Positions 36,031 through 64,000 are shown, counted from the stretch's first letter. The stretch: 64,000 nt of DNA from Methanosarcina sp. (GCA_003164755.1 PLUB01000061.1:102-64101); one strand, 5' to 3'. Translations and numbers: made by a program. Notes: generated by a model from the sequence alone, not told the origin.

Positions 36031-36117
36031 ATTAAAGTATTGTTCGATATTAAAACATTTTATTGGAACTAAGTTTTATTCAGAAACTATTTTTTTTATA
36101 ATTAATTTAAAATGAAG
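36031..36117 (+). promoter_or_regulatory. promoter/leader module, orphan copy E5
   Basis: attaaagtattgttcgatattaaaacattttattggaactaagttttattcagaaactattttttttataattaatttaaaatgaag. No downstream gene on the + strand. Confidence 0.45.
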
Positions 36118-36146
36118 AAGTAAATAATTGCATATTGTAGTCCAAA

Positions 36147-38996: not shown

Positions 38997-39698
38997 TAGT
39001 ACTCTCCTTTACTCAATTTGTAATTTTATGTCGAATATGCTATTATGAAAAATAAGAAGAAACTCAGCCCTTTCTCTATCAAGTGTTACAACAGTTTCAT
39101 CAGTTACATCTCGAGCCTATCCCGAAACTAGCATTATGTTGAAATTAGAAAGATATAATAATATATCTCCATGGAATCGGTGATGCTATGGTAATTCATA
39201 GAACCTCATCTCCTCTATATAAACCACAAACAGGAATATCTGTAACTATTTCAAACAATAAAATTAATGTAGATATATATATCAGTTTAGATAATATTCC
39301 TAAAGATCAGAGCCACAACTTCATAAAGCTATATTATGAAAAATAATACCCTTGTCGCGGAAATTTCTTTAAGTTTGATTCGCGAGAATAGAACGTATTA
39401 GAAGCTCGTGGGTTGGTAAAAGTCCTAGAGTTACAGTTATATAGGAAAATTCTGAGTGAGAGAATGTGCAATGAAATTTAAATAAGTCTGAGCCTTATTA
39501 CCGGACCTTCGCACAATGGATTACAACCCTGCTGATAACAACCCATTTGATGGGCAAGTGATCTAGATTACCAGCTGATAAAACTATTTATTTAGGCTCT
39601 TCTACATTGTAAAAGCTCTCCGATTAAAGATTGCAAAAAGACATTCTGCTTTGATCGACGGGATATTCGATATCTATTAGTGATTGGAGGGAATAGAT

Positions 39699-42065
39699 AT
39701 GTCATTGAAAGAGTATAAATCCGGAACCACTTTTCCAGGCGTAATAGAGCGCACAGCGGACAAGTAAGAACCAGCCTGGCCAGAACCACTACGTGCTAAA
39801 GAGAATGCACCCAACATACTGTTCATTGTGCTGGACGATACAGGGTTTGGACAACTGGGGTGCTATGGCAGCCCTATCAAAATACCCAATCTGGACAGCT
39901 TGGCTGCTAATGGTCTTGCTTATAGCAATATGCATACTACTGCGCTATGCTCGCCTAGCCGCTCATGTATGCTTACCGGTCGAAACCACCATTCTAACAA
40001 CATGGCCTGCATTACCAGAGGGCTCAACCGGTTATCCAGGCTATAACGGGTAATATACCTTTTGAGAACGGCTTTTTGTCAGAGATGCTTCTGCAGCATG
40101 GTTACAACACCTATGCTATCGGCAAATGGCACCTGACACCTGCTAACCAAATATCGGCAGGTGGGCCTTATGACAGGTGGCCTTTGGGACGAGGTTTCGA
40201 ATGCTTCTACGGTTTTTTAGGAGCTGAAACAAACCAGTATTACCCTGAACTGATCTATGATAATCATTCCATAGACCCTCCCAAAACTCCAGAAGAAGGC
40301 TACACAATGAATGAGGATATAGTAAACAGGACTATCCAATTCATTGCTGACTCTAAACAAGTCACACCCAGCAAGCCCTTTTCCATGTATTTCTGTCCAG
40401 GAGCCATGCATGCCCTTCACCACATTCCTAAAGAATGGGCAGACAAATACAAAGGAAAATTCGATGACGGCTGGGAAGCTTATCGGAAGAGAACATTTTC
40501 CTGGCAGAAGGAATTTGGTATTATTCCAAAAGAAACAGAGCTGTCTCGCCATGATCCAGATGTCAAGCCCTGGGATCAATGCTCACCTGAAGAAAAGAAA
40601 ACTCTATGCCCGTATGATGGAGGTCTTTGCTGAGTTCCTAGAACACACAGACTACTACATTGGGAGACTATTGCAATTCTTGAAAGATGTTGATGAATTT
40701 GAGAATACGTTGATCATGGTAATTTCAGATAATGGAGCAAGTGCTGAGGGTGGTCCCACAGGACCAATTAACGAGTCCAGGTTTTTCAATAACGTGCCTG
40801 AATCTCTCGAGGAGAATCTCGCAGCTCTGGATAAACTTGGAGGTCCAGAGACTTACAACCATTATGCATGGGGCTGGACATTTGCTGGAAACACACCCTT
40901 TCGCCGCTGGAAACGAGAGACTTATCGCGGCGGCATCAGTGATCCCTTTTATAGTCCACTGGCCCAAAGGAATTAAAGCTAAAGGCGAGATTCGCACTCA
41001 GTATGCTCACGCTATCGATATGATACCTACAGTTCTAGAATGCTTGGGAATTGAGCCTCCGAAGATTATCAAAGGTGTAAGCCAATCGCCTATCGAGGGC
41101 GTAAGTTTTGCACATACCTTCGACGATGCCAGTACGCCTACCAGGCACCACACCCAGTACTTCGAGATGATGGGGCACCGCTCCCTCTGTATCATGATGG
41201 TTGGCGTGCCGTATGTCCATGGCCTGGTCCTTCTTTCACTGAAGCAGGAAAACCTTTTGGAGAACCAATTTCTGCAAATACATTAACTGAGCTTGATGCA
41301 AAAGGCTGGGAGCTTTATCATGTTGAGAAAGACTGGACAGAGAATTATAACGTGGCTGCAGAAAATCGGCCGAAGTTAATCGAGATGATTTCAATCTGGT
41401 ACACAGAGGCCGGGAAATATAATGTGTTGCCTATCGATGGTCGTGGGGTTCTGCGTGGTTTCTATTAACGGCCAAGTGTTGCAATTAATCGAACGCATTA
41501 TACCTATTACCCTGGAACTCAGGAAATCCCCGCAACTGTAGCAGTCAACATCCTCAACCGCTCGCATAGTATTTTAGCTGATGTTGAGATCCCTACAGGA
41601 GGAGCTGAAGGGATATTACTCTCTCATGGTGGTGTCGACGGCGGATATTCATTCTATGTTCAATACGGAAAGCTTCACTGGGCACACAACTACGTATCTA
41701 GGGCTTTATATCATATAGAGTCCAATGAGAATGTTCTTGAAGGGAGACATCAACTTGGCTTTGAGTTTGAGGTGACAGATAAGCCAGATATTGCTAATGG
41801 CAAGGGCTCACCTGGAATTGCTAAGCTTTTTATAGACAGAAAATTAGTCGGCCAAACTGATGTATCGGTGACTACTCCACTTTCATTAGGGCTAACTGGC
41901 GGAGTTAACCTGTGGGTCAGCTCCATAGGTCACCAGTCACACCTGGACTACCAGCCTCCCTTGGGGGAGTTCACAGACAAGATCTATAACATGATTGTGG
42001 ATGTCAGTGGCCAGCTGATAGAAGACAAAGGAGCTGAGATGCATATTGCCATGGCCCGCCAATGA
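39699..42065 (+). pseudogene. arylsulfatase (formylglycine type), at least seven disruptions
   Basis: ggagg-ATG(39699). In-frame TAA at 39765-39767. NILFIVLDDTGFGQLGCYGS, sulfatase signature ALCSPSRSCMLTGRNHH, GKWHLTP, VISDNGAS and YRGGISDPF are spread over ORF-track pieces 39828.., 40076.., 40344.., 40732.. and 41772..42065 in changing frames. Confidence 0.8.
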
Positions 42066-47284: not shown

Positions 47285-47590
47285 GGTTATGTTGCAAAAA
47301 ATTTATAAGAAAGATACAATAGAATAAAAAGGAAATCAAGGGTGGTAATATACTATCTAGTTCCTTTAAATGGAAGCATTATGAAGAAGAAATATCTCAT
47401 TAAATGTAAGATGGTGCCTTATTCTGAATAGCTGTCTAAATCTGGATATTATCTGAGGAATATTCTGCCTTTTTATGTTCTTTGCTTTGCAACCAAATTT
47501 TTACGATACTGATTTCAAAATTTCCCACCTGAATAAGTTACTGCTTTGCATCTCATTTAAGCGACGCTGGTATTACCACTAGTAGGTAGA
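47285..47590 (+). mobile_element. left-end remnant of an IS6-family insertion sequence
   Basis: ggttatgttgcaaaaaa at 47285 resembles the IS26-type terminal repeat GGCACTGTTGCAAA. About 75 nt later SFKWKHYEEEIS(shift)LNVRWCLILNSCLNLDII resembles the IS6 transposase N-terminus FKGRHFQRDIILWAVRWYCKYGISYRELQEML. The remainder is degenerate. Confidence 0.45.
47421..47504 (+). repeat. 84-bp inverted repeat, left arm (flanks cydBA)
   Basis: Its reverse complement matches 50210..50293 at 82 of 84 positions (hand alignment). Confidence 0.9.
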
Positions 47591-48747: not shown

Positions 48748-50057
48748 TCAACTCCTGTCGCATTGACTACGGTTTTCTTTATGAGGTATATCTCAAAGAC
48801 CATCAGGATCAGAAAGACTGCGCTGATAAGGACAACACTTAACAACACATCTGATGGGGAACCGATGATATACCATTAGCTGTCTTTAGCAGACCATATA
48901 CCAGCCATGGCTGCCTTCAGATCTCAGTTACATTCCAGCCAGCAACGATGGCTATGAATGGGAGTGGAATCGACCACATCAATAGCTTCAGATACTTATC
49001 CGATGTGTACAGCTTGCCTGACTTTTGAAGATATGAGCCGACAAGAGCCTCTATGATAAACATGAATCCCAGAATTGTCATCAGCTTGAAGCTCCAGAAT
49101 ACCATTTCTACAGGTGGTAATTCATCCTGAGGTAGCTGGTTAAGTCCTGTTATCGTTCCGCTGAAACTTCCTGTATACAGGAAACTTGCAAGACCTGGAA
49201 TTCCTAGCAACTGAACACTATTAGAACCAGTGCTTGAATCCGGTACCTGTATCAGCTACATGGGCACTGAGGGACCTGTTTCCCATATCGCATCCATTGC
49301 CGCTCCTTTAGCAGGCTGAAGCTCGGTAACATATTGTGCATAACCGTGACCAAGAACTGGAAGCATGACGCAGTAGTGAGTGCTATGGTAACTGCTATGC
49401 TGAAAGACTTCTTGAACACTTCATTGTTGTTCCTTTTAAGGAAATGAGATGCACAGATTCCCATGATCAGGAATGCGGTCAACAGGTAAGCTGAAAGCAG
49501 AGTATGTACCAGCATATACCCCACATATCTGTTTGTAAGTAGAGCAAAGAAATCTGTCATAACCACCTTGCTCCCATTAGCAGCCATCTCATAACCTACG
49601 GGATTCTGCATAAAACCGTTTGCAGTGATAATCCATATGAAGATATGTTAGTACCCAGAGCGACCATCCACATGGAAAATGCCTTTAGTTTCTGACGGTT
49701 GCGATCCAAGAATATCCATGCGCCAAAGAAAGTACCTTCAAGGAAGAAAGCAAATAATGCTTCTATAGCTAAAGGTGGTCCAAAGACATCTCCCATGAAT
49801 TCCGCATAGGCACCCCAGTTCGTACCGAACTGGAAAGTCATTGCAAGACCTGATACTAGGCCTATTGCAAAGTTTATCTTGAATATCCTACCCCAAAAGT
49901 CGGCCATCTTTCGCCAAGTTTCATCTTTGTTCTTGTAGTATACCGTTTCCATGCCTGCCACTAACAGTGCGAGTCCCAATGTTAGTGGAACGAATAGGAA
50001 ATGGAACGCAACTGTTATGGCAAACTGAAGTCGGCTTAATAAAAGCAATTCAACCAT
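48744..50057 (-). pseudogene. cydA: cytochrome bd ubiquinol oxidase subunit I, at least three frame changes
   Basis: MVELLLLSRLQFAITVAFHFLFVPLTLGLA... (49596..50057), then WIITANGFMQNPVGYE... (49252..49611), then ...LLGIPGLASFLY...IVAGWNVTEI (48917..49210), then GRQPWLVYGLLKTA... to TGA 48744-48746. Confidence 0.85.
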
Positions 50058-50209: not shown

Positions 50210-50293
50210 GTAAAAATTCGGTTGCAACGCAAAGAACATAAAAAGGCAGAATATTCCTCAGATAATATCCAGATTTAGACAGCTATTCAGAAT
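50210..50293 (-). repeat. 84-bp inverted repeat, right arm
   Basis: gtaaaaattcggttgcaacgcaaagaacataaaaaggcagaatattcctcagataatatccagatttagacagctattcagaat. Confidence 0.9.
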
Positions 50294-50549
50294 AGTGGGA
50301 GCCAAATAAGGAAACTAATCATCTCATAAATCACCTAACTTAGTTATTCTACATATTCTGAGTTAATAATTAGGTACATAAACATTATAACCGTAAATAT
50401 AAATAAGTGATAAGCCACTGGTAGGCTCAATGTAGGTTTTTCTTCTCCAGAAAAAGAATAGTAATAGATTATGATGACTTCACAAGTAATAAAAAATAAT
50501 TATTACTATATAATTATTTTTTGACTCCGAAAAATCTTATACGGATCAT

Positions 50550-50617
50550 CTTTTGTTTAGAAGTAAATTTTCATAGAATTAATTTAAAATAACTACGGAG
50601 ATAATTATGTATTGTAG
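50550..50617 (+). promoter_or_regulatory. partial promoter/leader module, orphan copy E6
   Basis: cttttgtttagaagtaaattttcatagaattaatttaaaataactacggagataattatgtattgtag shares the aattaatttaaaataac...attgtag core with E4/E5. Confidence 0.35.
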
Positions 50618-51178: not shown

Positions 51179-51813
51179 TATGCATAACTAAAATGTAGTA
51201 TAATAATTATTACTAGAATAAGTATATCTATAAATATATATGTTAATGTAGTGGTAAGTCTAACTATAAACACTTATTTAGCAATACAGAAGCAAATGTT
51301 AAATTTAAAAGAGTATCTGCCGAAAACCAGTTATTGAATGCAGATATTTTTGTAAAATCTATGTATTTTCCCTTAAATTTGACTAAAAATAACCTATAAT
51401 TTAGGGCTAAAATGGCAAAAATACAAGGTTTTTGTTACAAAAACTATGCATCAGTAAAACCAAGAAATCCTGTATTGTAATGAAAGAAAAGGGTGGAGAA
51501 CAGTCATTTTTATATAATTTTTCATACACTGTCTTTATAGCCACTACTTTTTTAATAGCTATAACTTTACCATCGTTGGTCTTCATACCCACTACTTTTT
51601 TCGTAGCTATTGACCTCGGCGGATGAACAGGGACTGCCCCGACGATACTAGGCTTTACCCACACCGCCATACGCGAGGCGAGCGTCAACACCATTTACAG
51701 TTCTTCGCATCTGATGCTGCTGATTTTGCCCACGGTGATTTGAGCCTCTTGCGGCAAACGGCCATGCAGAGTGACTCGTTCAGGCCACGGCGAGTCACAG
51801 GCGTCATTCCAGG

Positions 51814-54065
51814 TCAGTCGATTCGCAGGCGCGCGTACACCGCGAGCTTGATGGAATCCATCGCCAGGGTGAAGACAATAGTCGTCGCGACGAGCAGTGT
51901 TATCATGATTATCGGAAGCGAGCTCATCAATACACCTCCAGCGGCGAGAGAAGCGACCAGGAGGACATCCCAGAGTGAGGCCAGCAGCATTATCGGCGCG
52001 GGACGTGAGCTCCATAGACGCCCGTGCTCCCGCAACACATAGCTGTTTCCCTGGCCGGCGAAGACGAGCATCGTGAAGGTCAACGTTTGCATCTCGCCGG
52101 GGCTAAGGCGTAGCCAGTACCAGCCGACGCCGAGCACCGCTACCAGATAAAGAAGCCTGAAAGAACCGAGGGGAACCGCGGCGAGCGTAAGGTTTCGCAC
52201 GCGCCAGGCATTCGGGTAGGGAGACGGCCGCGCCCGGTCCGCCGTGCGCGCCATCGTCGCGAAGTCGTTGGTGATCATCGAAAGCGCTTGCAAAAGCGGT
52301 GTCAGAACCGCGTGCCCGGTGATAATCAGCCCCGCGCCGAGCACGATGAGCGTCACGCATTTGTTGATAAGGATCGTCAGCGTGTAGGTCAGAATGCGTT
52401 GGAACGCGGATCTCCCTTCCTTGATGCAGGCGACGATTCCGCCGAGGCCAGGTTCGGTCAGCACGACGCCCGCCGCGGCTTTCGCGACATCTGTAGCGGT
52501 CGAAACGGCGATGCCCATTGGCGCCGTCGCCGCACATGCCGACCGCATGCCCATGCTGCTGAAACGCTTTGACCAGGTGAAACTTCTGCTCCGGGAAAAT
52601 GCCGGCGTAGACGGCGAAGTCCTTCGGCTCGACGCTCGCGGGAACGTCGCCCGGCGGATAAACTGGCCCAGTGAGCCCGATCTCACGTGCGACGGTCGTC
52701 GCGGTAGCGGCCGCGTCGCCGGTGAGCATGACCGTGAGCACGCCGAGCGAGCGCAACTCGGTCAGCAATTCCGCCGAATCGGCGCGCGGAGGATCGCTGA
52801 ACGCAATGAACCCGATCAGTTCCAGTGCGTCGCTCGGCCCGGCAGCCACGGCGATCGTCCGATATCCAGCCAAGTTGAGCGTTTCGAGTTCCTTCTCGGA
52901 CGCCGGCGTCATCGGTGCGACCGTCGCGATGACGGCCGGCGCGGCCCGGGCCCTTGGCCGCCTCCACCGTCCGGATGACGGAATCTATCGGGTCCTGGCC
53001 TTCCGATGAACTCGCCAGCGCGGCAAAGCCGATGACGTCCGAAGCGTCGCAGCCCGGCTTCACCGGCCGAATCGCGCTCACGACCAATTCATTTTGGGTC
53101 AGCGTGCCGGTCTTGTCGCAGCAGATAACATCGACTATGGCCGCTTCGTTCAGCGAAGACAGCCGAGTTAGCAGCACGCCCTTCAAGGCGAGCGTTCGCG
53201 CGCCCAAAGCAGCGGCGAGCGTGAATGTCGCCGGCAGAGCGACGGGCACCGCCGACAGCAACGCCGTCAGGACGAGCAACAGGATCTGCTCGAAGCTGAT
53301 CCTGACCGCGAATGCATAAGCCACGAGCCCAGCGACAATGACGAAATTGATCACCGTGAGATTGCGAACGACGCTGAGCACGGCCTTCTGCTCGGCGCTA
53401 TCGATGTGGGCGACGCTGACCAGCTCCGCCGTCCGTCCGAAATAGGTGCGCGTTCCCGTCGCCGTTACCCGCGCAATTGCCGCGCCGCGACGAACGAGGC
53501 CGCCAGCGAAGGCGGTCTTTCCGCTCTCCATTTCGATTGGGATAGATTCGCCGGTCAGCATGGATTGATCGAGCAACAGCGAGCCGTCGACGATGAGGAC
53601 ATCTGCCGGAACGACTTCCCCGAGCGAAACCTGGACGATATCGCCGGGAACTAGGTCGGCCGCCGGGCCATCAACCCAAACGCCGTTGCGCCTGACGCGC
53701 GACATCAATGTCAGGCGCCGCTTGAGAAGCGCCAAAGCGGCGTCTGCGCGACTTTGCTGAAAGTCGGCGAGCAGGACGTTGAAGAGGAGCAGCCCCGCGA
53801 TCATCGACGCCGTAAGCCACTGGCCCAGGAAGATTTGCAGGCCTATCGTCACCTCGAGCATCCACGGCACCGGCGCCCAGAAATGGCGAGCGAATCTCCC
53901 GAGAGGAGGGATCGATTCCTCGATGACGGCGTTCGGACCGAATTCTGCTCGAAGGGACGCGGCTTGGGCCGACGACAGCCCGGCGAGTCCTCCCTCATCG
54001 TGCGCCACTGTTTCTTGCAAGGGCATACTCATTTCGACGGCCTTACCTAAGCCGGCATTTTCCAT
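51814..54065 (-). pseudogene. P-type ATPase of plasma-membrane H+-ATPase (P3A) type, two frame breaks, within the high-GC island
   Basis: LTGESIPIE (TGES), CCDKTGTLT (DKTGT) and MLTGDAAATA (TGD) are present. The hinge reads GDGAN then jumps frame to MGIAVSTATDVAKAAAGVVLTEPGL, so the universal GDGxNDxPAL motif is cut short. Three ORF-track pieces: 52683..54065, 52103..52912, 51814..52686. Confidence 0.85.
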
Positions 54066-54351
54066 ATAGCCTCCGGTTCAAGCCCAAGCTATGACTCGTT
54101 GCCATGTGCACCAACCGCAGGTTCAGCAAGGCGATAACAGTTCCAGTCAGCGCCGAAAGAAGGGCGGTTCGCCACCCAAAGTGCAAGATCGAAGCTGCGG
54201 TGACCAACAAGAAAACACCCGGTAGTAGGAACAATGCAGCTGTGGCGTTGCCCGGTACAAAGAGTAAACCATACCATAGGAAATAATTATGAAAATAGAG
54301 TGCTGCTCCGGTTATCAGGCAGATCAAGAGCCATTCTTTCGCTAACGCCAA
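54043..54351 (-). CDS. small 3-TM membrane ORF upstream of the ATPase (high-GC island)
   Basis: 102-aa ORF with a TTG start, hydrophobic, overlaps the ATPase start. Same foreign composition. Function unknown and may be non-functional. Confidence 0.35.
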   Translation of the reverse strand: MALAKEWLLICLITGAALYFHNYFLWYGLLFVPGNATAALFLLPGVFLLVTAASILHFGWRTALLSALTGTVIALLNLRLVHMATSHSLGLNRRLYGKCRLR

Positions 54352-54507
54352 CGTAAATGACGGCGTAGAAACGGATGCCTGTAAGGTATGAACCTACTCT
54401 TTCTCGTGGAGATATAGGCGGCGTTCCGCTTTGTCCAGCCCGCGACCCGAATTACTTCCTCAAATTCGTGCAACATAAATACTCAAATTTGACCCAATAT
54501 AAAATCA

Positions 54508-54633
54508 CTACAAAAACTGATAAAGTGATACATTGAGAGCTCCTTGAAGATTTGCTCCTTGGAGGTTAGTTTCCATAAGGTCAACTCCTTGAAGGTTAGC
54601 TCCCTGAAGGTCTTTTCTCTCTGGAATATCCAT
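54508..54633 (-). pseudogene. 41-aa pentapeptide-repeat remnant
   Basis: MDIPERKDLQGANLQGVDLMETNLQGANLQGALNVSLYQFL. Five A(D/N)LxG-type pentapeptide units only. Confidence 0.4.
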
Positions 54634-55102
54634 TTATAACTATCGACTTTGAACTAAGATAAGCATTACTATGCTAGGAAAATGTCTCCTGCTTTTCAGG
54701 ATTTTTTGGTTTCGCTGATGCAGAGATTTTGCTCTAAAACCTGTGCATCAGGGAAGCCTATATATCATGTTTTATAATACTCCACCGATAATATAAGATA
54801 TAGTAATCGGTATGGCTATATGATCGTCATTACAAAACAAAATTTAAAACCGGAATTCGTTTTGAGGATATTTTTTAAGAAAAAAATAGTCAAATTAGAC
54901 AAGGGATTTTAAAAGTTAATTTGATATTCTCTTTAATCAAAAATGAATCATAAAAATCTTCCAGTATAGTATGTATTTACTTAATTATAGGGACTTTTCA
55001 CTTTTTTATATGATCGCCAAAACTTACTATTAATTCCATTAGTGTCAAAAGTTCAAAAAATATAAAAATTCTAGAATGTTACAATAAAGAGGATAGATTA
55101 CC

Positions 55103-55273
55103 ATGAAAGAAGCAAAGGCACTCAAAGTGATCAAGTGTCAGGGTACAGACTACGAGATCGGGCAGCAATATGGAAAAGCGTGTAGAGAGATTTTCCATCT
55201 TAGCAACGAGAGGATTAACTCTTTCAGTCAGCAGTGCCAGATAAGCAAGGAGCAAATTATTGCCAGCGGGTAA
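55103..55273 (+). pseudogene. N-terminal 56-aa fragment of a C45-family (acyl-CoA:6-APA acyltransferase-like) protein
   Basis: MKEAKALKVIKCQGTDYEIGQQYGKACREIF... matches the GTxYExGxxxG opening of C45 peptidases. Stops at 55271-55273. Confidence 0.4.
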
Positions 55274-55323
55274 GAACTTTACCTTGAGCCTATAAATCGC
55301 CGATCACTTGTTTATATTTATGA

Positions 55324-55749
55324 TCATAGGATATGTAATCCATAAATGATACGTGGAGTATTATCAAAAAATCGACAAATCAAAGAAATCAAACGTGCTG
55401 TGTAATTCTGAACATATGCATTTTGTGATTGGATATCCTTTCCTAGGTATACTCTTTTTGTCTCAATATCCCCACATTTAACAATTTCTATATCTTGATA
55501 GCCTAACGAACTATCAAATGTCTTTGAAATATACTCATACTTAAGCTCATCAGCAATCAAATTCTAACCACTTGGATTTGTCGTTATTTTGTGATCGCCA
55601 TTATTAAATAGATATAGAGTTACAGCTAAATGTTCATAATCCACTTGAGCTACTTTTGGGTAATTAATTGTTACTCGTTCATCAACTCCTACACCCACTC
55701 CAATGTCAAAGAAAAAAAGATCCAAACAACGTTGAGAAATAGTATTTAC
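55324..55749 (-). other. unknown ORF interrupted by a single in-frame TAG (55564-55566)
   Basis: One frame reads ...CLDLFFFDIGVGVGVDERVTINYPKVAQVDYEHLAVTLYLFNNGDHKITTNPSG-TAG-NLIADELKYEYISKTFDSSLGYQDIEIVKCGDIETKRVYLGKDIQ.... No ATG, only TTG/GTG candidates. Confidence 0.3.
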
Positions 55750-55770: not shown

Positions 55771-56493
55771 TTAGAGTCCTGCCAGATAACTTATCCAGGC
55801 TACTGAAAGACCTATTGTCACTATGCTTAGCAAGGAAAGTTCGTTATTGCGTGTCTTTGCCACCTGGTACAGAAGAAAAGGAACTACATAGCGGGCACTT
55901 ATAAGAGTGAAAAGAACGAGTCCTATTCCCCTAAATATAAGATTAAAGAGAGCACTTCCAACTACTGCCTCTCCGGCAAGCAGTGGAGCAAGGATAATTA
56001 TAAAAACAGCAGCTATCTCCTGGAAAATGAGGATTCCAAGTGCAATTCTCCCGTGAACGCTGTAGATCTCCCCCTTCTCTGGCATAAGTTTCAGGACAAT
56101 AGCTGTGCTGCTAAGTGTCACAATAAGCCCCATAAAAACTGCAGCTTTAGGAGAATAACCAAGCCACACGAAAATAAAACCGACAATAATGCTTGTCATA
56201 AAGACCTGCAGCCCTCCTCCCAAAAGTACTATTCTTTTGAGCTTCAGGAGATCGCTCAGGGAAAACTCTATTCCAATTGTAAAAAGCAGCAGTAAGACTC
56301 CGATTTCAGCCAGAACTTCTATGTTTTTGATCTCTTGAATTAGTCCGAAACCGAATGGCTCGGCAAGTATACCCGCAAGCAAGAAACCCACAAGCAGAGC
56401 TATTTTTAATCTTGCGAATGTAAAAACAACGGGAATAGAGAGCCCGAAGATGATTAAGAGGTCAGCTAGAAGATTATATGCCCTTAATTGAAT
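55771..56493 (-). pseudogene. truncated CPA2-family cation:proton antiporter (N-terminal about 240 aa, no canonical start)
   Basis: ...LLADLLIIFGLSIPVVFTFARLKIALLVGFLLAGILAEPFGFGLI...EIGVLLLLFTIGIEFSL... is typical of KefB/NapA-type exchangers. The frame is open to 56493 without ATG/GTG/TTG at the expected start, and ends at 55771 after about 6 TM instead of about 12. Confidence 0.6.
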
Positions 56494-58174: not shown

Positions 58175-58707
58175 CTAAATGGAACCATTATCCAAAATTA
58201 TTTCATTTTTCAGTCGCTTTGGCACGCTCTTCTGCAGTCATGCTAGTAAGGCGATCAAGTTGGCTTTTGAACTGTCCACATAATTTCCTCTTCTATGCAG
58301 TTATCAATAATTATCTTGCTGAATGACCAAACTGGTATACTGTCTATGTAGTACACAGGAAAACCAAAATAGTTCCTGAAAAAAATTCGATCAATATATT
58401 GTTTCTCAAATTCAAATTCAAAAGACAATACCATTGTTGTAAAACGAGAATTTTGAACATACTAATGACATCATTTCTGGTCTGCCACCAAAAACGGTTT
58501 TATTTAGAAATATGGACTTTAAAAAACGATACTAAAAGTTTTCCAATCAATTAAGGAATCGATTTCAACAAGTTAATCCCCAACTGACTGAAAAGTTTGT
58601 ATTCTTACTTAGGACCAAAACCAGTAGGATTTTTCATGAGTAAAAATTATTGCTAAGATATCTGAACTTTCAAATACAAAAAAATATAGAAATTAATCGA
58701 AATTCTC
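58175..58707 (-). mobile_element. decayed IS5/IS1182-type element (copy D3)
   Basis: Reverse complement starts gagaatttcgattaattt and aligns with D1/D2 through the ...gataactgcatagaagaggaaattatgtggacagttc... region. Confidence 0.6.
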
Positions 58708-59083
58708 TATAATTTACTACATTTTAAATACTTATAACTGAAGGTACATAATCAAATTCCAGTAATTGAATGACTTTCTGCTGATTCAGAAAGGATTTCT
58801 ATAAAGCCAAATTTTGACATTATTTTCAATCTCTCTCTTAAGTTCAAAACTCGATTTGTCCATTTGTGAGTTATTTATTATGAGAATAACGGATACTATT
58901 GCTTTATTTTATTAGATTTTTTAACTTTCTACTCTTTGTAGTATCAAGTAGCTGACCTTGACAATCGCATTTCGAAAGTTTTAAGAATATCGCATTTAAT
59001 GTCATTTTGCTTTCCTACAATATTCTTGAAAAGCGAGCAATTTTGATCCTCACATAATTTTTATAGATCATTCCGGTGAGTGA

Positions 59084-60445
59084 ATGAAAACCCCATTGAT
59101 ATACTCTAAAAATCATAAGGACCAGACAAACCCTAGTAAGGAAAAATCTGATCAAAGGGAAATGGATAGAATAAATGAGATATATAACGAAGAGGGGCAA
59201 AATACCGCAAGGTTCAAAGCTGAAGAATTTCATCCCACGCTTTGGATCGAAGAAAATAGGAGCTCCTCACTTGTTGGAAAAACTATAGTTCTTGGCGTTA
59301 CGGGAAGTATTGGAGCAGTCAGGGTAGTTGAACTTGCAAGGGAACTTATCAGAAATGGAGCTAAAGTTCATGCAGTTATGACTGATGCTGCCAGGCATAT
59401 CCTGCATCCTGATGCCCTACATTATGCTACCGGAAATTCTGTAATTACTGAGCTTGGAGGCAGAGTGGAGCATGTGGAATTCTGTGGGCTTAAAGGCAGG
59501 GCTGATATTCTTCTTATAGCTCCTGCAACAGTAAATACCATAGGGAAAATAGCATCCGGAATAGATGATACAACCGTTACTTCCTTTGCAACAACAGCTA
59601 TTGGCTCAGGCATACCTCTGATAATTGTCCCTGCAATGCACGAGTCAATGTATAAACACCCGGCTGTAGTTGAGAATATAATAAAACTGAAAACTTGGGG
59701 GCTTCTTATTGTAGGCCCAAAATTGGAAGAAGGCATCGCAAAAATAGCATCAAATGAAGAAATAGTGCTAGAAGTAGAAAGGACTCTGGGGAAAAAGAGT
59801 CTTAAAAACAGAAAGGTGATCATCACAAGCGGTTCTACCACCGAAACTCTCGATCCTATACGCATCCTCACGAACCGAGCCTCAGGGAAAACTGGGAGGG
59901 AACTTGCTCTTGAAGCTTACCGCAGGGGAGCTGAGGTAACAGTGGTACATCGTAACAGATTGAATATTCCAGGAATTTGGGAAATTTTGGTAGAAAGCGC
60001 CGCTGAAATGACAGATGCAGTGCTATATGAACTGCAGAAAGGATATGATATCCTGATCAGCGAAGCAGCAATTGCAGACTATACAGCTGAGCCTTCCACT
60101 GAAAAAAGAAAGTCAGGTGAAGAATTTATTTTAAAGCTAAAACCGACCCGCAAATTGATAAAAGAATGCCGTAAAAGGTATTCTGATCTCGTGATCATTG
60201 GCTTTAAAGCCGAAACTGGAGTGGGGAGGGAGGAGCTTCTCAGAAGGGCAACTGCAACCCTTGAGGAATCAAAACTGGATCTGATTGCAGCAAATGATGT
60301 CGGAAAAGGTGGAATGGGCACCGAGGAAAACGAACTTTACCTTATCGGGAGAAAAAAAGGTCAGCCTAAGCACATAAGCGGAAACAAAAGGAAACTTGCA
60401 GCTTCGATTATTGAAGAGATCATCGAGCTTTTGAATGATAAATAG
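59084..60445 (+). CDS. coaBC: bifunctional phosphopantothenoylcysteine decarboxylase / phosphopantothenate-cysteine ligase
   Basis: 453 aa. Flavoprotein half (IVLGVTGSIGAVR...PAMHESM) followed by the CoaB half (ITSGSTTETLDPIRILTNRASGKTG). The true start may be an internal ATG. Confidence 0.9.
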   Translation: MKTPLIYSKNHKDQTNPSKEKSDQREMDRINEIYNEEGQNTARFKAEEFHPTLWIEENRSSSLVGKTIVLGVTGSIGAVRVVELARELIRNGAKVHAVMTDAARHILHPDALHYATGNSVITELGGRVEHVEFCGLKGRADILLIAPATVNTIGKIASGIDDTTVTSFATTAIGSGIPLIIVPAMHESMYKHPAVVENIIKLKTWGLLIVGPKLEEGIAKIASNEEIVLEVERTLGKKSLKNRKVIITSGSTTETLDPIRILTNRASGKTGRELALEAYRRGAEVTVVHRNRLNIPGIWEILVESAAEMTDAVLYELQKGYDILISEAAIADYTAEPSTEKRKSGEEFILKLKPTRKLIKECRKRYSDLVIIGFKAETGVGREELLRRATATLEESKLDLIAANDVGKGGMGTEENELYLIGRKKGQPKHISGNKRKLAASIIEEIIELLNDK

Positions 60446-60651
60446 TTTTCTAAAATTATTAGCTTATCTTGAAGTTGAAACCGTATAATTATGATACGCA
60501 TATTAGATGCTAAATATCTATTCAATAAGATTAGCTATACCCAAAGATAAATAGCTTCATTCAATCCTGAATGTACCTGCAAAATGCGAAACATTCTGCA
60601 AAACAGAAACGAACTTTGAAAAATCTATTAAAGTTATAATAGGCGCTTTCT

Positions 60652-61554
60652 ATGCACAAATATCAGAGTGGAGTAGCAGACTTTTATGCAAAAGCCTATG
60701 CACCTGGACACATCACAGGTTTTTTTCAGATCTACGAACATGAAAATCCTCATCGTAAGGGTTCTACAGGGTGTGGAATTGTCCTGAATGGAGGAGTTAC
60801 CACCGAGGTTAAAGTCGGGGAATCCGTAGAAAAGACAGAGATATTCCTCAACGGTAAGGAGGTTGAAGGCAGAACAACCCGTACAGTCGCAGAAATGATT
60901 ACTAATGTACCTGTAAGGATTAAGAGCTGGACAGAAATTCCGATTGGATGCGGATTTGGAGCTTCAGGTGCAGGAGCTCTTGGGACTGCCTATGCCCTAA
61001 ACAAAGCGCTTTCTCTGGATCAGACCACAAAAAGCTTGGCTGAATATGCCCATGTAGCAGAAGTCATCAATTGCAGCGGGCTTGGAGACATTGCTGGCCA
61101 ATCTAGTGGTGGAGTAGTAATTCGAACACAGCCTGGAGGATCAAAATTTGGACTTGTGGATGGTATCCCGGTTTCCGAATCCAGGGTTTATTGTATTGTG
61201 CTCGGCGAGATCTCCACGAATTCTGTCCTGAAAGACAGGGATGCAGTTGGGAGAATTAATTCTGCAGGAAAAGTCGCAATGTCAGAGCTGCTTAAAAAAC
61301 CTACTCTTGAAAATTTTATGTACCAAGCAAAGGAGTTTGCTGGTAAAATCGGCCTTATGAGCAGCAGGGCAAAGGATATAATTGAAGTTATAAACGCAAA
61401 CGGATGGATGGCTTCTCAGGCAATGTTTGGAGATACAGTTTTTCTAATTGCTCCTCATTGCCAGGAATTTATTATTTATGAAGCTCTCCAGGAATTCGGC
61501 CAGGTGCTGGAATATAATATTAGCACTTGTGTGCCCAAATTAATGCATGATTGA
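60652..61554 (+). CDS. pantoate kinase (archaeal CoA pathway, GHMP-kinase fold)
   Basis: 300 aa. AYAPGHITGFF and the GHMP motif PIGCGFGASGAGALG. Sits next to the phosphopantothenate synthetase gene, as is usual in archaea. Confidence 0.75.
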   Translation: MHKYQSGVADFYAKAYAPGHITGFFQIYEHENPHRKGSTGCGIVLNGGVTTEVKVGESVEKTEIFLNGKEVEGRTTRTVAEMITNVPVRIKSWTEIPIGCGFGASGAGALGTAYALNKALSLDQTTKSLAEYAHVAEVINCSGLGDIAGQSSGGVVIRTQPGGSKFGLVDGIPVSESRVYCIVLGEISTNSVLKDRDAVGRINSAGKVAMSELLKKPTLENFMYQAKEFAGKIGLMSSRAKDIIEVINANGWMASQAMFGDTVFLIAPHCQEFIIYEALQEFGQVLEYNISTCVPKLMHD

Positions 61555-61605
61555 ACCTTAGGATGAAATCCTATTTATTTCTTGAATATTAGGCAGGAAA
61601 ACCTA

Positions 61606-61692
61606 GAGCGATTTCGAGAAACGTCTGATTTTCACGAATCATTTATGTTATTTAAAGCATAGGAAAAAAATTTGTGGTTTATCTAAATTCTC
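61606..61692. mobile_element. family C MITE-like element, copy 7
   Basis: gagcgatttcgagaaacg ... ggtttatctaaattctcc. Confidence 0.55.
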
Positions 61693-61963
61693 CAAAATTT
61701 ACTACAGAGCTCACAAAACTCACGTAAAAAAAATTAGAAATATAGTCGTATGGATAACATTATTCAGATTATTTTTCGAAGTCTATCCAAGGTATAATGA
61801 AGAATTTAAACTAAATATAATGATACAGTAATAATAGCAACTATTCCAGAATTAACACAAATCACTGAGTACTAACTTTCAGTAAAATCACAATATAGGT
61901 CAGAAAGCAATAAACAAAATAAATGATAAAATTAAGCTAACGAGCAAAAAGTAGGCAACAGAA

Positions 61964-62725
61964 ATGACCGAAATACCAAAAGACCACCCAAGGCATGAGT
62001 CCCTGCTTGCCCGTGAAAAAGTTGCAGCAGGGGTAAAAATGGGAATTACAAGCATTCAAGGGTTGATTTCGCAGGGTAGAGGCGAAACCTTTGATTATCT
62101 CATAGGCGAGCGGAGCACAGAGTCAGCTCTGTATGCTGAGAGGGCAGCAGTTGCTGCTATCCTTCTCGCAAAGAAACCAGTGATTTCCATAAATGGTAAC
62201 GTCGCAGCCTTAACTCCTGAAAGAGTCGTTTCTCTTGCAGACATTACAGGGGCCAAGATTGAAGTAAATCTTTTCCACAGGACTGAAACACGGGTACACC
62301 TTATAATAGAACAAATGAAAGCCAAAGGAGCTGGGGAAGTGCTCGGAAAAAATCCTGACGCAAGCATTGAGCTCTCCAGTGGCAGACGCCTGATAGAGAG
62401 AAGGGGGATCTATACCGCAGATGTCGTGCTCATTCCACTAGAAGATGGAGATCGTTGCGAAAAACTTGTAGAAATGGGCAAAACTGTAATTACAATTGAC
62501 CTAAATCCCCTTTCCAGAACCTCCAGAAAAGCTACTATATCCATTGTGGATAACCTCACTCGAGCTCTTGATAACATGGTCAAATTTGCAAGAGAAATAA
62601 AACAAGAAAGAAAAGATGAGCTTGTGAAATTAATTATGACCTACGATAACAAAAGAGTACTCTCAGAGGCGATTTCTGAAATTCAGGAACATCTAAAAAC
62701 CATAATTGCTGAAATTGAATACTGA
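61964..62725 (+). CDS. phosphopantothenate synthetase (4-phosphopantoate--beta-alanine ligase, archaeal)
   Basis: 253 aa. ...GRGETFDYLIGE...PVISINGNVAAL...VITIDLNPLSRT resembles the COG1701/DUF137 family. Confidence 0.75.
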   Translation: MTEIPKDHPRHESLLAREKVAAGVKMGITSIQGLISQGRGETFDYLIGERSTESALYAERAAVAAILLAKKPVISINGNVAALTPERVVSLADITGAKIEVNLFHRTETRVHLIIEQMKAKGAGEVLGKNPDASIELSSGRRLIERRGIYTADVVLIPLEDGDRCEKLVEMGKTVITIDLNPLSRTSRKATISIVDNLTRALDNMVKFAREIKQERKDELVKLIMTYDNKRVLSEAISEIQEHLKTIIAEIEY

Positions 62726-63453
62726 AAATGGCTATTATGGAAAAAAAGGTATCTATTACCGTTATAATTGATTATGGCATGTCTAAAATAAATTTTTACG
62801 ATGCCTATACAAAAAAATCATTTAATATCTTATTTTTATAGACACAACGATTTTACATGACTTAGTTTCATTTTATGATACACAAGTAGCTTTAAAAATA
62901 ACTCATTTAGTCACTAACTATTCTCTGGAAAGTTCCCATTATACAGCAAACTGCAGGGTATTCGACTGTAATGAGCCATTTAAGACTCCTTGATAACTAT
63001 AGCTTGCTACATCATGTAAAAGTACTATAAAAAAAGAGACTACATGATTTGAAAGGATGATAGACAATAACTTGGTTATATCTATACCAGAAGTATAGTA
63101 ATTTTTCGTTGCCATAATCAACGATTTCATCACTTTAAATAATTCTATCATACTATTATGATTGGTAGAACTGGCTTCTGAACTGATGAGATTCAGAAAT
63201 ATTGCTTTACCTTTTACCTTTAAATATGTTTGATGTATAACTATATTTTGCATCGGCATTGCCATATGGCATTTTGATGATTATTTGAATTGATAAAGCG
63301 GCAGAGTAGTCAGATATACATATTTTTTAAAAATATTCCGGGGAAAATTGGTTCTCAGAATTTGTAAATGGAATTTATGAATTGTAATGCACATAATCAG
63401 GTTCCCGAACAAATTTTGTAAACAAAATTAAATATGAGAAGGGAAGGATAAAT

Positions 63454-64000
63454 ATGGCTAAAGAAATGTACATATTACCGAATTTGAAATATGGATATGC
63501 AGACTTAGAGCCTTATATTTCTGAAGAACAGTTGCGAATACACCATAACAAACACCATCAAGCTTATGTGACTAATGTGAATTCGATTTTGCAGATGATG
63601 GACAAAGCAAGAGCAGACGGAACTGATTTTGATTACAAGGCAAATGCAAAAGCTTTGGCTTTTAATTTGGGAGGACATGTCCTTCATGATTATTTTTGGT
63701 GGGAGATGATTCCTGCAAACAATTCCAACAAAGAACCAGTCGGTGAATTGTCTGAGGTAATCAAAGAAGACTTCGAAAATTTTGAAAGGTTTAAAAAGGA
63801 GTTTACCCAGGTCGCATTAAGTGTTGAAGGTTCCGGTTGGGCAGCATTAAGTTTCTGCAAGGGTACTAAAAGACTCGGAATCATGCAGATAGAAAAGCAC
63901 AATGTAAATATAATTCCGAGTTTCCCGATTCTAATGGTTCTGGACGTATGGGAGCACGCCTACTACATTGACTACAAGAATGAAAGAGGCAAATTCATAG
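63454..64000 (+). CDS. sod: Fe/Mn superoxide dismutase (3-prime end beyond the window)
   Basis: Own translation from ATG 63454 (ggaagga RBS): [39 protein letters not shown]...GSGWAAL...[14 protein letters not shown]. Absent from the ORF track because no stop falls within the window. Confidence 0.9.

What the first reader, a model, noticed from the sequence alone, without database searches (positions are those of the whole stretch)
51615..54470. Sharp-edged ~2.9-kb high-GC island carrying a dead P3A-type H+-ATPase
Composition changes abruptly. Hand counts give 40/60 G+C for lines 52081-52140 and 53401-53460, against 14/60 for flank line 54841-54900. The island holds a small 3-TM ORF and a P-type ATPase with TGES, DKTGT and TGD motifs, resembling plasma-membrane proton pumps. 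The ATPase frame is broken twice. A composition jump this large with sharp edges (about 51.61 and 54.47 kb) implies either very recent acquisition from a high-GC donor or a chimeric assembly. I saw no integrase, tRNA or flanking direct repeats, so the insertion mechanism is unexplained.
Basis: partly seen in the sequence, partly recalled or inferred. Interest (0 to 1): 0.7.

Follow-up and report, generated by a model that had tools for sequence, protein, structure and literature searches.

The report
Dead bacterial pump gene in archaeon
A 2.9-kb piece of bacterial DNA carrying a proton-pump-type ATPase sits in the chromosome of a Methanosarcina-like archaeon; a sister strain still has the gene intact, and this strain has recently lost it to small deletions, so it is a very fresh but otherwise ordinary bacteria-to-archaea gene transfer.

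Summary
The GC island is real.

It is not an assembly chimera. The same junctions occur in at least 22 contigs from independent JGI and ENA assemblies. They also occur in a sister lineage (L092, flanks 98% identical).

The host is a Methanosarcina-like archaeon. The insert is a mosaic of three parts:
- a P3A-like P-type ATPase gene, 91-92% identical in DNA to alphaproteobacterial contigs (nearest named: Roseiarcus, Beijerinckiaceae);
- a 200-bp tail of unknown origin.

In L092 the ATPase is intact (793 aa). Since the two lineages split, both copies have evolved under purifying selection (omega 0.12 and 0.25). The gene was therefore acquired before the split and was functional in the archaeon.

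In the window lineage the ATPase was then killed by 104-nt and 29-nt microhomology-flanked deletions. The HXXEE ORF lost 1 nt. The whole segment was inverted, and 2.4 kb was deleted next to it.

There is no integrase, tRNA or target duplication, so the insertion mechanism is still inferred. This is a new, unusually fresh member of a known kind of event.

The parts
51612..54480 (.). Whole foreign (bacterial-type) insert, 2.87 kb, 60.6% GC in a 36% GC archaeal chromosome
   Evidence: GC profile. Markov host/donor LLR edges at 51612 and 54449. HXXEE-family nucleotide homology reaches 54479. Identical junctions in L001-L006 and in L092.
51814..54065 (-). P3A-like P-type ATPase pseudogene. It reads in three frames: 54065-52944, 52943-52520 and 52519-51814. 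Donors may use an alternative start at 54032.
   Evidence: Pfam E1-E2_ATPase, Cation_ATPase_N and Hydrolase. 86% aa identity to P0001. 91-92% nt identity to L007, L018, L047, L090 and L091. The intact 793-aa orthologue in L092 is 98.1% nt identical. TIGR01647 is the best NCBIfam match. AHA2 is the best PDB match.
52940..52946 (-). Site of the 104-nt deletion. It removes ~34 codons of the N domain and shifts the frame. It is flanked by a 6-7-nt microhomology (CGCGCC).
   Evidence: Alignment to five donor contigs and to L092.
52520..52523 (-). Site of the 29-nt deletion. It removes D-A-P-A-L-R-Q-A-Q of the GDGxNDxPAL P-domain motif and shifts the frame. It is flanked by a 4-nt AATG microhomology.
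54066..54117 (-). ATPase 5' leader, conserved with the bacterial contigs. The archaeal copies have GGAGG 6 nt before the ATG where the donors have GGCGG.
   Evidence: Multiple alignment of upstream regions. Three-frame translations.
54043..54476 (-). HXXEE-domain (PF13787) ORF remnant. It is 144 codons in L092. Here it is frameshifted by a 1-nt deletion between 54381 and 54380.
   Evidence: P0301 is 96% identical and passes PF13787 at 30.2 bits against a cutoff of 25. The 1-nt gap is seen in alignment A1. Against family members it lacks 16 N-terminal and 20 internal residues. 70-74% nt identity to a bacterial HXXEE gene in L173.
51612..51813 (-). 3' tail of the insert, 58% GC, origin unassigned. 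It contains an 8-bp-stem hairpin (51771-51798) just after the ATPase stop codon.
   Evidence: No match in 165 bacterial loci or in the plasmid collection. Conserved in L092. Hairpin fold z = -2.5.
51421..51472 (.). Copy of a dispersed host hairpin repeat, ~140 nt outside the left edge. It contains inversion junction 1 (TTTTGTTACAAAAACT|ATGCAT).
54697..54769 (.). Palindromic copy of the same host hairpin repeat, ~220 nt outside the right edge.
   Evidence: DNA fold -16.1 kcal/mol, z = -4.9.
55255..55268 (.). Junction 2: the 14-nt AATTATTGCCAGCG repeat at which 2.4 kb present in L092 was deleted after the inversion. The lost DNA includes most of an AAT/C45-like gene.
55103..55273 (+). N-terminal 56-codon remnant of the host AAT (PF03417) gene truncated by that deletion. 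The gene is intact at 355 aa in L092.

Best explanation
The island is a 2.87-kb piece of bacterial DNA that became fixed in the chromosome of a Methanosarcina-like archaeon. It is a mosaic of three parts:
- a truncated HXXEE-domain membrane-protein gene;
- fused to it, a gene-sized unit encoding a P3A-like (plasma-membrane H+-ATPase-like) P-type ATPase, whose closest relatives are in alphaproteobacterial contigs (nearest named relatives: Roseiarcus and Beijerinckiaceae);
- a 200-bp tail of unknown origin.

Shown:
- The insertion happened once, before two sister populations split at about 2% divergence.
- The ATPase stayed under purifying selection in the archaeon and is still intact in one lineage.
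- In the window's lineage the locus has been dismantled by small replication- or repair-type lesions. These are a 104-nt and a 29-nt deletion between short direct repeats in the ATPase, and a 1-nt deletion in the upstream ORF.
- The lesions also include an inversion of the whole segment through ~24-nt inverted copies of a host hairpin repeat, and a 2.4-kb deletion between 14-nt repeats.

Inferred:
- While intact, the pump exported protons (or another cation) and helped pH or ion homeostasis in an acidic habitat.
- Integration was by illegitimate, microhomology-type recombination of a linear fragment into a repeat-rich, rearrangement-prone intergenic zone. No dedicated recombinase was involved.
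- The GC3 drop from 82% to 76% is early amelioration towards the AT-rich host.
For: Host identity: archaeal LeuRS, pantoate kinase and PPS_PS. Dfp is 78% identical to Methanosarcina barkeri and 77% to M. spelaei.

Donor:
- The best of 5.8 billion proteins is 86% identical. Named hits are Roseiarcus (80%) and Beijerinckiaceae (77%).
- 576 bacterial loci form an identity gradient from 50% to 86%.
- DNA identity to five contigs is 91-92%, but only across 51810-54117.
- The archaeal copy is closer to those five contigs than Roseiarcus L008 is (91.7% against 87.5%), so it is nested inside bacterial diversity.
- Donor gene GC is 65-67% and donor locus GC is 58-64%.

Not a chimera:
- The identical 460-aa ORF occurs in 36 index blocks and 22 contigs.
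- Six contigs from JGI and ENA are 99.98-100% identical to the window over 11-21 kb.
- The same junctions occur in L092.

Single old acquisition: window versus L092 is 98.1% identical in the ATPase and 98.0-98.3% in the flanks.

Functional after transfer:
- L092 encodes an uninterrupted 793-aa ATPase.
- Post-split substitutions fall at codon positions 4/3/15 (window) and 4/1/15 (L092).
- Omega is 0.25 (p = 0.0013 against neutrality) for the window and 0.12 (p = 8e-6) for L092.

Lesions. Inversion and deletion junctions.

P3A-like character:
- TIGR01647 is the best family, matched full-length.
- AHA2 and Pma1 are the best PDB hits, and the TM6 Asp and TM2 Asn are conserved.

Composition shift:
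- GC3 is 0.76 and 0.75 in the archaeal copies against 0.82 in the donors.
- On archaeal branches GC>AT outnumbers AT>GC by 113 to 24.

Mobility of the family:
- Five bacterial contigs share only the gene plus 50-100 nt on each side.
- Homologues lie on plasmids of Methylocella tundrae, Granulicella tundricola, Acidiphilium and Rhizobium.
Against: - No empty site was recovered, so the insertion chemistry is not shown. The nearest lineage without the island at this position (L087, 94-96% nt) is rearranged there.
- The closest sampled bacterial copies are still 8% away. About 110 substitutions lie on the branch leading to the archaeal copies. It is unknown how many arose in an unsampled donor and how many in the archaeon.
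- The GC>AT excess on archaeal branches is not statistically distinguishable from the excess on the donors' own tip branches (Fisher p = 0.13-0.14). Amelioration is therefore suggested, not proven.
- The omega estimates rest on 20-22 substitutions per branch and on parsimony polarisation.
- Because the gene moves between bacterial contexts, gene identity does not pin down the donor's taxonomy.
- Proton transport is unproven. The review PMC10654040 states that the transport function of prokaryotic P3A ATPases is undetermined. The protein scores below the TIGR01647 equivalog cutoff, and the TM5 Arg is not at the aligned position.
- No expression data were available.
Confidence: 0.85

Rival explanations
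1. Assembly chimera or contamination: a bacterial contig fragment was wrongly joined into an archaeal contig.
For: The GC step is extreme and sharp. The source is metagenomic. Bacteria carrying closely related genes are abundant in MAG collections whose names (SPRUCE, palsa, bog) suggest peatland origin.
Against: - Both junctions are identical in at least 22 contigs from different assemblies and assemblers. Six of them were examined at 99.98-100% identity.
- The same junctions occur in a 2%-diverged lineage with a different local arrangement.
- The insert differs from every bacterial copy by 8%.
- Its GC3 has shifted towards the host.
- It carries lineage-specific lesions.
Confidence: 0.01
2. 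Very recent, strain-specific arrival of DNA that was already dead: junk DNA uptake that never functioned in the archaeon.
For: Both ORFs are broken in the window. There is no obvious archaeal promoter evidence. The HXXEE part is truncated even in the 'intact' lineage.
Against: - L092 has an uninterrupted 793-aa ATPase at the same junctions.
- Island and flank divergence are equal.
- Post-split omega is 0.12 and 0.25, both significantly below 1.
- The deletions are absent from L092 and from all donors, so they are derived in the window lineage.
Confidence: 0.04
3. A native archaeal P3A ATPase with aberrant composition, or a transfer from the archaeon to bacteria. Prokaryotic P3A pumps are described mainly from methanogens.
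For: [quoted passage not shown]
Against: - The gene's GC (63%, GC3 76%) is far from host genes (GC3 0.27-0.47) and close to bacterial copies (GC3 0.82).
- Hundreds of bacterial homologues span 50-92% identity, with the archaeal copy nested among them.
- A 94-96% relative (L087) has no island at the syntenic spot.
Confidence: 0.02
4. Insertion by a mobile element. Either the island rode in on, or was captured by, a hairpin-repeat (MITE-like) or transposon vehicle, or the ATPase is a cassette moved by an unrecognised site-specific system.
For: - Copies of one dispersed host hairpin repeat lie ~140 nt and ~220 nt outside the two edges, yet only 3-4 copies exist in 64 kb.
- In the sister lineage L087, two copies of the same repeat bracket a different 870-nt segment at the corresponding place.
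- In bacteria the ATPase sits in five unrelated contexts with homology limited to the gene.
- A transposase-type HTH ORF lies 500 nt downstream in L090.
- Family members are plasmid-borne.
Against: - No transposase or integrase is present among the island ORFs scanned or the called genes around the island.
- There are no terminal inverted repeats at the true GC edges and no target-site duplication.
- The extent of shared flank among bacterial copies varies, from -90 to +13 upstream, unlike a fixed cassette boundary.
- The hairpin repeats are host-type AT-rich DNA that also occurs elsewhere.
Confidence: 0.1

Closest known systems
Bacteria-to-Methanosarcina horizontal gene transfer (Garushyants et al. 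2015, PMC4455057)
   Same: A single-gene-sized bacterial fragment inserted without its regulator into a Methanosarcina-type chromosome. That study reports a characteristic fragment length of ~1.2-1.3 kb, many transporters among the transferred genes, and that bacterial-type transporters can work in archaeal membranes.
   Different: - This event is far fresher than those catalogued: 91-92% DNA identity to bacterial copies, with donor-level GC essentially unameliorated.
- It comes from an uncultured lineage.
- It is caught in two states, intact and dead, in sister populations.
Prokaryotic P3A P-type ATPases (e.g. MJ1226 of Methanocaldococcus jannaschii; eukaryotic AHA2 and Pma1), as reviewed in PMC10654040
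   Same: - The best NCBIfam family is TIGR01647, matched over its full length.
- The best solved structures are AHA2 (5ksd) and Pma1.
- TGES, DKTGT, TGD and GDGxND motifs are present, as are the TM6 Asp and TM2 Asn.
- It has the short form without N- and C-terminal regulatory extensions.
   Different: - The score of 566.6 is below the 615.5 equivalog cutoff.
- The TM5 Arg is not at the aligned position.
- The lineage is bacterial (Alphaproteobacteria and other soil bacteria), not the methanogen-native type.
- The window copy is a pseudogene.
Classical genomic islands (integrase-bearing, tRNA-adjacent, flanked by direct repeats)
   Same: Sharp compositional discontinuity, foreign cargo, and presence or absence varying among relatives.
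   Different: - No integrase, no tRNA and no flanking direct repeats.
- Only 2.9 kb, with a single functional gene.
Acquisition of low-pH adaptation genes by archaea through HGT (Ca. Nitrosotalea; Herbold et al. 2017, PMC5767755)
   Same: An archaeon in an acidic soil-type habitat gains ion or pH-homeostasis genes from co-resident microbes.
   Different: - There the donors were acidophilic Euryarchaeota and the genes are retained core genes.
- Here the donor is bacterial, the adaptive role is only inferred, and one lineage has already discarded the gene.
Amelioration of horizontally acquired DNA (Lawrence and Ochman model; from my own knowledge)
   Same: Foreign GC-rich DNA in an AT-rich genome shows a net GC>AT flux concentrated at third codon positions. 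GC3 falls from 0.82 to 0.76, and the counts are 113 GC>AT against 24 AT>GC.
   Different: The bias is not statistically separable from that on the donors' own tip branches (p = 0.13-0.14). Part of the shift could also predate the transfer.

Membership tests
P-type ATPase superfamily (HAD-IC) | E1-E2 ATPase and HAD hydrolase domains, with TGES, DKTGT, TGD and GDGxNDxP motifs | tested here: met
   Pfam PF00122, PF00690 and PF00702. TIGR01494 scores 264 bits against a cutoff of 62 on the L092 orthologue. All motifs are present in L092. In the window copy the GDGxNDxPAL motif is destroyed by the 29-nt deletion.
P3A plasma-membrane H+-ATPase (TIGR01647 equivalog) | Score at or above NCBIfam's curated equivalog cutoff | tested here: not met
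   566.6 bits against a cutoff of 615.5. It is nevertheless by far the best family (the next scores 271 bits) and is matched over positions 1-751 of 755.
P3A plasma-membrane H+-ATPase | Closest solved structures are P3A pumps; TM6 Asp proton acceptor (AHA2 D684) and TM2 Asn (N106) are conserved | tested here: met
   AHA2 (5ksd) E = 6e-105; Pma1 E = 2e-96 and 5e-92. ND in 'MITNDFATM' aligns with AHA2 'ILNDGTIM'. The N in 'LLFNVL' aligns with 'LVINST'.
P3A plasma-membrane H+-ATPase | TM5 Arg (AHA2 R655) that tunes the Asp pKa | tested here: inconclusive
   The aligned residue is Leu, and a Lys lies four residues upstream ('LINKCVTL'). The review notes that the Arg position differs even between plants and fungi.
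P3A plasma-membrane H+-ATPase | ATP-driven H+ export | not testable with these tools
   The transport function of prokaryotic P3A pumps is stated to be undetermined (PMC10654040).
HXXEE-domain proteins (PF13787) | Pfam gathering score and full-length architecture (~165-180 aa) | tested here: inconclusive
   The L092 ORF (144 aa) scores 30.2 against a cutoff of 25. It lacks the first 16 residues and an internal 20-residue stretch, and its C-terminus is replaced. The window copy is additionally frameshifted.
Classical genomic island / integrative element | Integrase or recombinase gene, tRNA or other att site, flanking direct repeats | tested here: not met
   No tRNA in the 64-kb window. No integrase-type domain among the island ORFs scanned or the called neighbours. 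Only chance-level short repeats lie at the edges.
Transposon / IS / integron cassette | Transposase, terminal inverted repeats at the element ends, target-site duplication, or an attC site with fixed cassette boundaries | tested here: not met
   None was seen at 51612 or 54480. The extent of bacterial flank homology is variable. The nearby inverted hairpin repeats are host-type and lie 140-220 nt outside the edges.
Inter-domain HGT (bacterium to archaeon) | Gene nested in bacterial diversity, donor-like composition, and physical linkage to archaeal genes confirmed independently | tested here: met
   (nesting). (composition). (archaeal flanks in many independent contigs and in two lineages).

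The most novel reading that the evidence does not exclude
The ATPase gene may be a self-contained, gene-sized mobile unit. It would move between unrelated genomes, including across the bacteria-archaea boundary, by a mechanism that needs no linked recombinase. The host's paired hairpin repeats may mark a preferred capture site for such DNA.

Four observations fit this reading:
- Five bacterial contigs share 95-97% identity over the gene plus 50-100 nt on each side and nothing else.
- The archaeal insert shares the same unit, from -52 to +4.
- Copies of one hairpin repeat bracket the insert.
- In a sister lineage, copies of the same repeat bracket a different segment at the corresponding place.
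Probability: 0.12. Interest if true: 0.7.

Novelty: new member of a known kind. Interest (0 to 1): 0.42.

Why it matters
Transfer of bacterial transporter genes into Methanosarcina is well documented, but nearly always as old, ameliorated events. Here several things are available at once:
- the donor clade, at 91-92% DNA identity;
- an intact recipient copy under purifying selection;
- a freshly inactivated copy whose every lesion is resolved to the base.

This makes a compact natural experiment on three questions:
- how a bacterial membrane pump fares in an archaeal cell;
- how quickly composition drifts (GC3 82% to 76%);
- how an acquired gene is discarded (microhomology deletions, repeat-mediated inversion).

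It also gives a concrete, testable candidate for a bacterial-type P3A-like pump that functions in a methanogen. Prokaryotic members of this family have no established transport function. It does not reveal a new kind of system.

Tried and rejected
It returned only bacterial loci and never the host genome, so the host was identified through Dfp homologues instead.
It returned no archaeal copies and no donor closer than 89-90% aa.
- The first protein search did not list the L092 protein. The absence of hits above 86% there is therefore not evidence that intact copies are absent.
- The search for an empty site failed. L087 (94-96% nt) loses synteny at window 55497. It has the hairpin repeat but unrelated DNA beyond it. 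L089 was uninformative.
- Rfam found nothing at gathering thresholds in the window, and there are no tRNAs.
- The sigma-70 and terminator scan was at chance level and is not applicable to archaeal promoters.
- The 200-bp tail (51612-51813) matched nothing by blastn or tblastx in 165 bacterial loci (2.1 Mb) or in the plasmid collection.
- The 49-nt inverted pair 50386-50434 / 55280-55328 was first suspected to be the element's termini. It was rejected because the real inversion and deletion junctions lie elsewhere.
- The 21-nt direct pair 51372 / 54482 was judged to be chance.
- An integron-cassette reading of the bacterial unit was rejected because the boundary positions vary.
- A GC>AT bias test against donor tip branches was not significant.
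Full report
**Observation.** The compositional island is real and was described accurately.
- The three hand counts are exact: 40/60, 40/60 and 14/60 G+C.
- The stretch 51612-54480 is 60.6% GC, against 36.4% and 36.1% in the rest of the window. Host 300-nt windows average 0.363 (sd 0.069), and island windows average 0.617 and never fall below 0.50.
- A third-order Markov comparison of host-like and donor-like sequence places the left edge at 51612, sharp to a few bases. It places the GC drop on the right at 54449. Homology to HXXEE-family genes shows that the foreign DNA continues to about 54479.
- ARAGORN finds no tRNA in the window and Rfam finds nothing.

**The ATPase.**
- It lies on the minus strand from 54065 to 51814 and carries the E1-E2_ATPase, Cation_ATPase_N and HAD hydrolase domains.
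- Aligned with close homologues, it is interrupted by exactly two lesions and has no in-frame stop.
- The first lesion is a 104-nt deletion between 52944 and 52943. It is flanked in intact copies by the short direct repeat CGCGCC. It removes about 34 codons of the nucleotide-binding domain.
- The second is a 29-nt deletion between 52520 and 52519, flanked by AATG. It removes D-A-P-A-L-R-Q-A-Q from the GDGxNDxPAL motif of the phosphorylation domain. Each deletion shifts the frame by two.
- These are large, specific deletions, identical in every contig examined. They are not sequencing slips.

**Host.**
- The flanks encode an archaeal-type leucyl-tRNA synthetase, threonine synthase, Dfp, pantoate kinase and phosphopantothenate synthetase.
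- The best named matches to Dfp are Methanosarcina barkeri (78%) and M. spelaei (77%). Unnamed metagenomic relatives reach 80-97%.
- The host is therefore an uncultured Methanosarcina-like archaeon.

**Not a chimera.**
- The exact 460-aa product of the first ATPase fragment is indexed in 36 blocks of the contig collection, and 22 contigs were read.
- Six of these, from JGI and ENA assemblies with different naming and assembler styles, are 99.98-100% identical to the window over 11-21 kb, including both junctions.
- The junctions are also identical in a second lineage, described below.

**Donor.**
- Among 5.8 billion clustered proteins, the best match to the reconstructed protein is 86% identical. 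Named matches are Roseiarcus sp. (80%) and Beijerinckiaceae (77%).
- In species-representative genomes, 576 bacterial loci encode relatives at 50-86% identity. They are mostly Alphaproteobacteria, with Acidobacteriota, Verrucomicrobiota, Planctomycetes and a Gemmatimonadetes MAG also present. Many MAG names (SPRUCE, palsa, bog) point to peatlands.
- At the DNA level the window matches five bacterial contigs (L007, L018, L047, L090, L091) at 91-92%, but only across 51810-54117.
- Those five contigs are 95-97% identical to one another, and 87% identical to Roseiarcus L008. The archaeal copy is 91.7% identical to L007, so it is nested within bacterial diversity.
- Donor genes are 65-67% GC, and their loci are 58-64% GC.
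- The direction of transfer is therefore bacterium to archaeon.
- The five bacterial contigs share nothing beyond the gene plus 50-100 nt on each side.
- One contig has a transposase-type HTH ORF 500 nt downstream.
- Homologues at 54% identity lie on plasmids of Methylocella tundrae, Rhizobium rhizogenes, Granulicella tundricola and Acidiphilium.
- The gene therefore moves among bacteria as a gene-sized unit, so gene identity alone cannot name the donor species.

**The key relative.**
It is 144 aa, 96% identical, and passes the Pfam HXXEE model at 30.2 bits against a cutoff of 25.
- Its contig, L092 (JGI 3300060650, 65 kb), is a sister population of the host. The flanks are 98.0-98.3% identical to the window.
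- L092 carries the same insert with base-identical junctions.
- There, the HXXEE ORF is open and overlaps by 23 nt an uninterrupted 793-aa ATPase gene.
- In the window, a single A is missing between 54381 and 54380.

**The HXXEE ORF was already damaged.**
- Even the L092 version is degenerate relative to its family. It lacks the first 16 residues and an internal 20-residue stretch.
- Its last ~20 codons are read from the ATPase's conserved 5' leader.
- Its closest relative (58% aa, 70-74% nt) sits in a 57% GC bacterial contig beside an N-ATPase operon and an AraC-family regulator.
- The insert is therefore a mosaic of three parts: a truncated bacterial HXXEE gene (about 54134-54479), the ATPase unit (51810-54117), and a 200-bp tail (51612-51813) that matches nothing I could search.

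**History inferred from the two lineages.**
- The ATPase differs by 1.9% between the window and L092, the same as the flanks. The insert therefore predates their split and has been inherited vertically since.
- Substitutions were polarised with the bacterial consensus. 110 changes are shared by both archaeal copies, 22 are private to the window, and 20 are private to L092.
- The private changes fall at codon positions 4/3/15 and 4/1/15. N:S is 9:13 and 5:15, giving omega of 0.25 and 0.12. Both are significantly below neutrality (p = 0.0013 and 8e-6).
- The pump was therefore maintained by selection inside the archaeon. It still appears functional in L092, and its loss in the window lineage is recent relative to ~1% divergence.

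**Composition shift.**
- GC3 is 0.76 and 0.75 in the archaeal copies, 0.82 in the donors and 0.27-0.47 in host genes.
- GC>AT changes outnumber AT>GC by 113 to 24 on archaeal branches. This fits early amelioration.
- The bias is not statistically distinguishable from the bias on the donors' tip branches (p = 0.13-0.14), so I treat amelioration as suggested only.

**Structural change.**
- Relative to L092, the window segment from about 51440 to 55260 is inverted. Two L092-only blocks are also missing: 1.4 kb holding most of an AAT/C45-like gene, and a further 1.0 kb.
- Junction 1 lies within a ~24-nt stretch (TTTTGTTACAAAAAACTNTGCAT) that L092 carries in inverted orientation in two copies of a dispersed host hairpin repeat.
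- Junction 2 lies at a 14-nt repeat, AATTATTGCCAGCG.
- The simplest path is an inversion through the inverted hairpin copies. That inversion turns the 14-nt repeats into direct repeats. A single 2.4-kb deletion between them then truncates the AAT gene to the 56-codon remnant at 55103-55273.

**Insertion mechanism.** This step is not shown.
- No integrase or transposase was found, there is no tRNA, and no terminal inverted repeats or target duplication lie at the true edges.
- Copies of the host hairpin repeat lie about 140 nt and 220 nt outside the two edges. Only 3-4 copies occur in 64 kb.
- In a 94-96% relative (L087), two copies of the same repeat bracket a different 870-nt segment at the corresponding place. 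That relative has no island within 3.3 kb, but it is rearranged there and offers no clean empty site.
- I therefore favour illegitimate integration of a linear fragment into a repeat-rich, recombination-prone intergenic zone. A hairpin-associated capture mechanism remains a minority alternative.

**Family placement.**
- On the intact L092 protein, TIGR01647 (plasma-membrane proton-efflux P-type ATPase) is by far the best NCBIfam model. It scores 566.6 bits over positions 1-751 of 755, and the next family scores 271 bits. It falls short of the 615.5 equivalog cutoff.
- The best solved structures are AHA2 (E = 6e-105) and fungal Pma1.
- The TM6 Asp proton acceptor and the TM2 Asn are conserved. 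The TM5 Arg is not at the aligned position.
- The protein lacks the eukaryotic regulatory extensions, as prokaryotic P3A pumps do.
- The review PMC10654040 notes that prokaryotic P3A pumps have no established transport function.
- The protein is therefore P3A-like. Proton export and a role in acid tolerance are inferences.

**Comparison with what is known.**
- Garushyants et al. (PMC4455057) found that about 5% of Methanosarcina genes are of bacterial origin. They are typically single-gene fragments of ~1.2-1.3 kb, transferred without regulators. That study also found that bacterial-type transporters can work in archaeal membranes.
- The present case fits that pattern and is a new member of a known kind.
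- What sets it apart is its freshness: over 90% DNA identity to bacterial copies, with donor-level GC. Both an intact and a just-inactivated allele are also available.

**Verdict.**
High-GC foreign origin holds, the chimera reading is rejected, and 'very recent arrival' is replaced by an older functional acquisition with recent inactivation.
- Interest is moderate.

Noticed in passing
window 37894-41286; 48917-50057; 55771-56391; L089 1160-4508: The window is unusually rich in pseudogenes and poor in coding sequence for an archaeon.
- A sulfatase is split over four ORFs (39828-41286).
- An NMT1/SBP-like gene lies in pieces at 37894-38996, where GC reaches 0.56. This is the only other compositional outlier in the window.
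- cydA is in three pieces.
- A Na+/H+ exchanger is truncated.
- Sister contigs also show split Nramp, SOD and Asn-synthase genes.
The whole clade may be undergoing gene decay.
   Followed up: partly
window 47420-47504 and 50210-50294: An 85-nt inverted repeat, 97.6% identical, brackets the cytochrome bd oxidase genes cydAB. It is also present in L092. It could be a MITE pair or a sign that the cyd block is itself mobile or acquired (cydB GC3 is 0.44, against 0.27-0.38 for core genes).
   Followed up: no
window 58248-58677 (also 12670-13148 and 34529-34953); L002 1-5176: A ~430-480-nt dispersed repeat (72-73% identity between copies) sits at the breakpoint of a second inversion. In contig L002 (JGI 3300037196) the Dfp/pantoate kinase/PPS/SOD block (58825-64000) is inverted relative to the window in otherwise identical sequence. 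The L002 order matches the sister lineage L087. This is either a real population polymorphism or an assembly alternative.
   Followed up: partly
L007, L018, L047, L090, L091 (ATPase plus 50-100 nt on each side): Five bacterial contigs carry 95-97% identical copies of the ATPase in completely unrelated genomic contexts. This implies frequent gene-sized transfer among the bacteria. L090 has an HTH_Tnp_1 ORF 500 nt downstream. Relatives at 54% identity are on plasmids of Methylocella tundrae, Granulicella tundricola, Acidiphilium and Rhizobium.
   Followed up: partly
window 54066-54075: Both archaeal copies have GGAGG 6 nt upstream of the ATG at 54065, where the bacterial copies have GGCGG. Two of the bacterial copies also lack that ATG. 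This may be an improved ribosome-binding site and start codon acquired in the archaeal host. A TATA-like TTTTATAT lies at 54497-54504, ~25 nt upstream of the HXXEE ATG, but it reads TTTTAGAT in the lineage with intact genes.
   Followed up: no
window 5220-5346, 9335-9475, 36074-36140, 50479-50617; L087 18384-18916: A further ~140-nt dispersed repeat family (70-82% identity) is scattered through intergenic regions and clusters at the synteny break in the sister lineage L087.
   Followed up: no
window 51531-51626: A tandem 48-nt duplication (88% over 32 nt) ends exactly at the left edge of the insert, and its second copy may run ~15 nt into the GC-rich DNA. It could be a trace of the integration event or a coincidence.
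   Followed up: no
L173 1-4270: The nearest full-length relative of the HXXEE ORF lies in a 57% GC bacterial contig next to an N-ATPase-type operon (AtpR, ATPase_gene1). That is the operon type known to have been transferred from bacteria into Methanosarcina acetivorans and M. barkeri.
   Followed up: no
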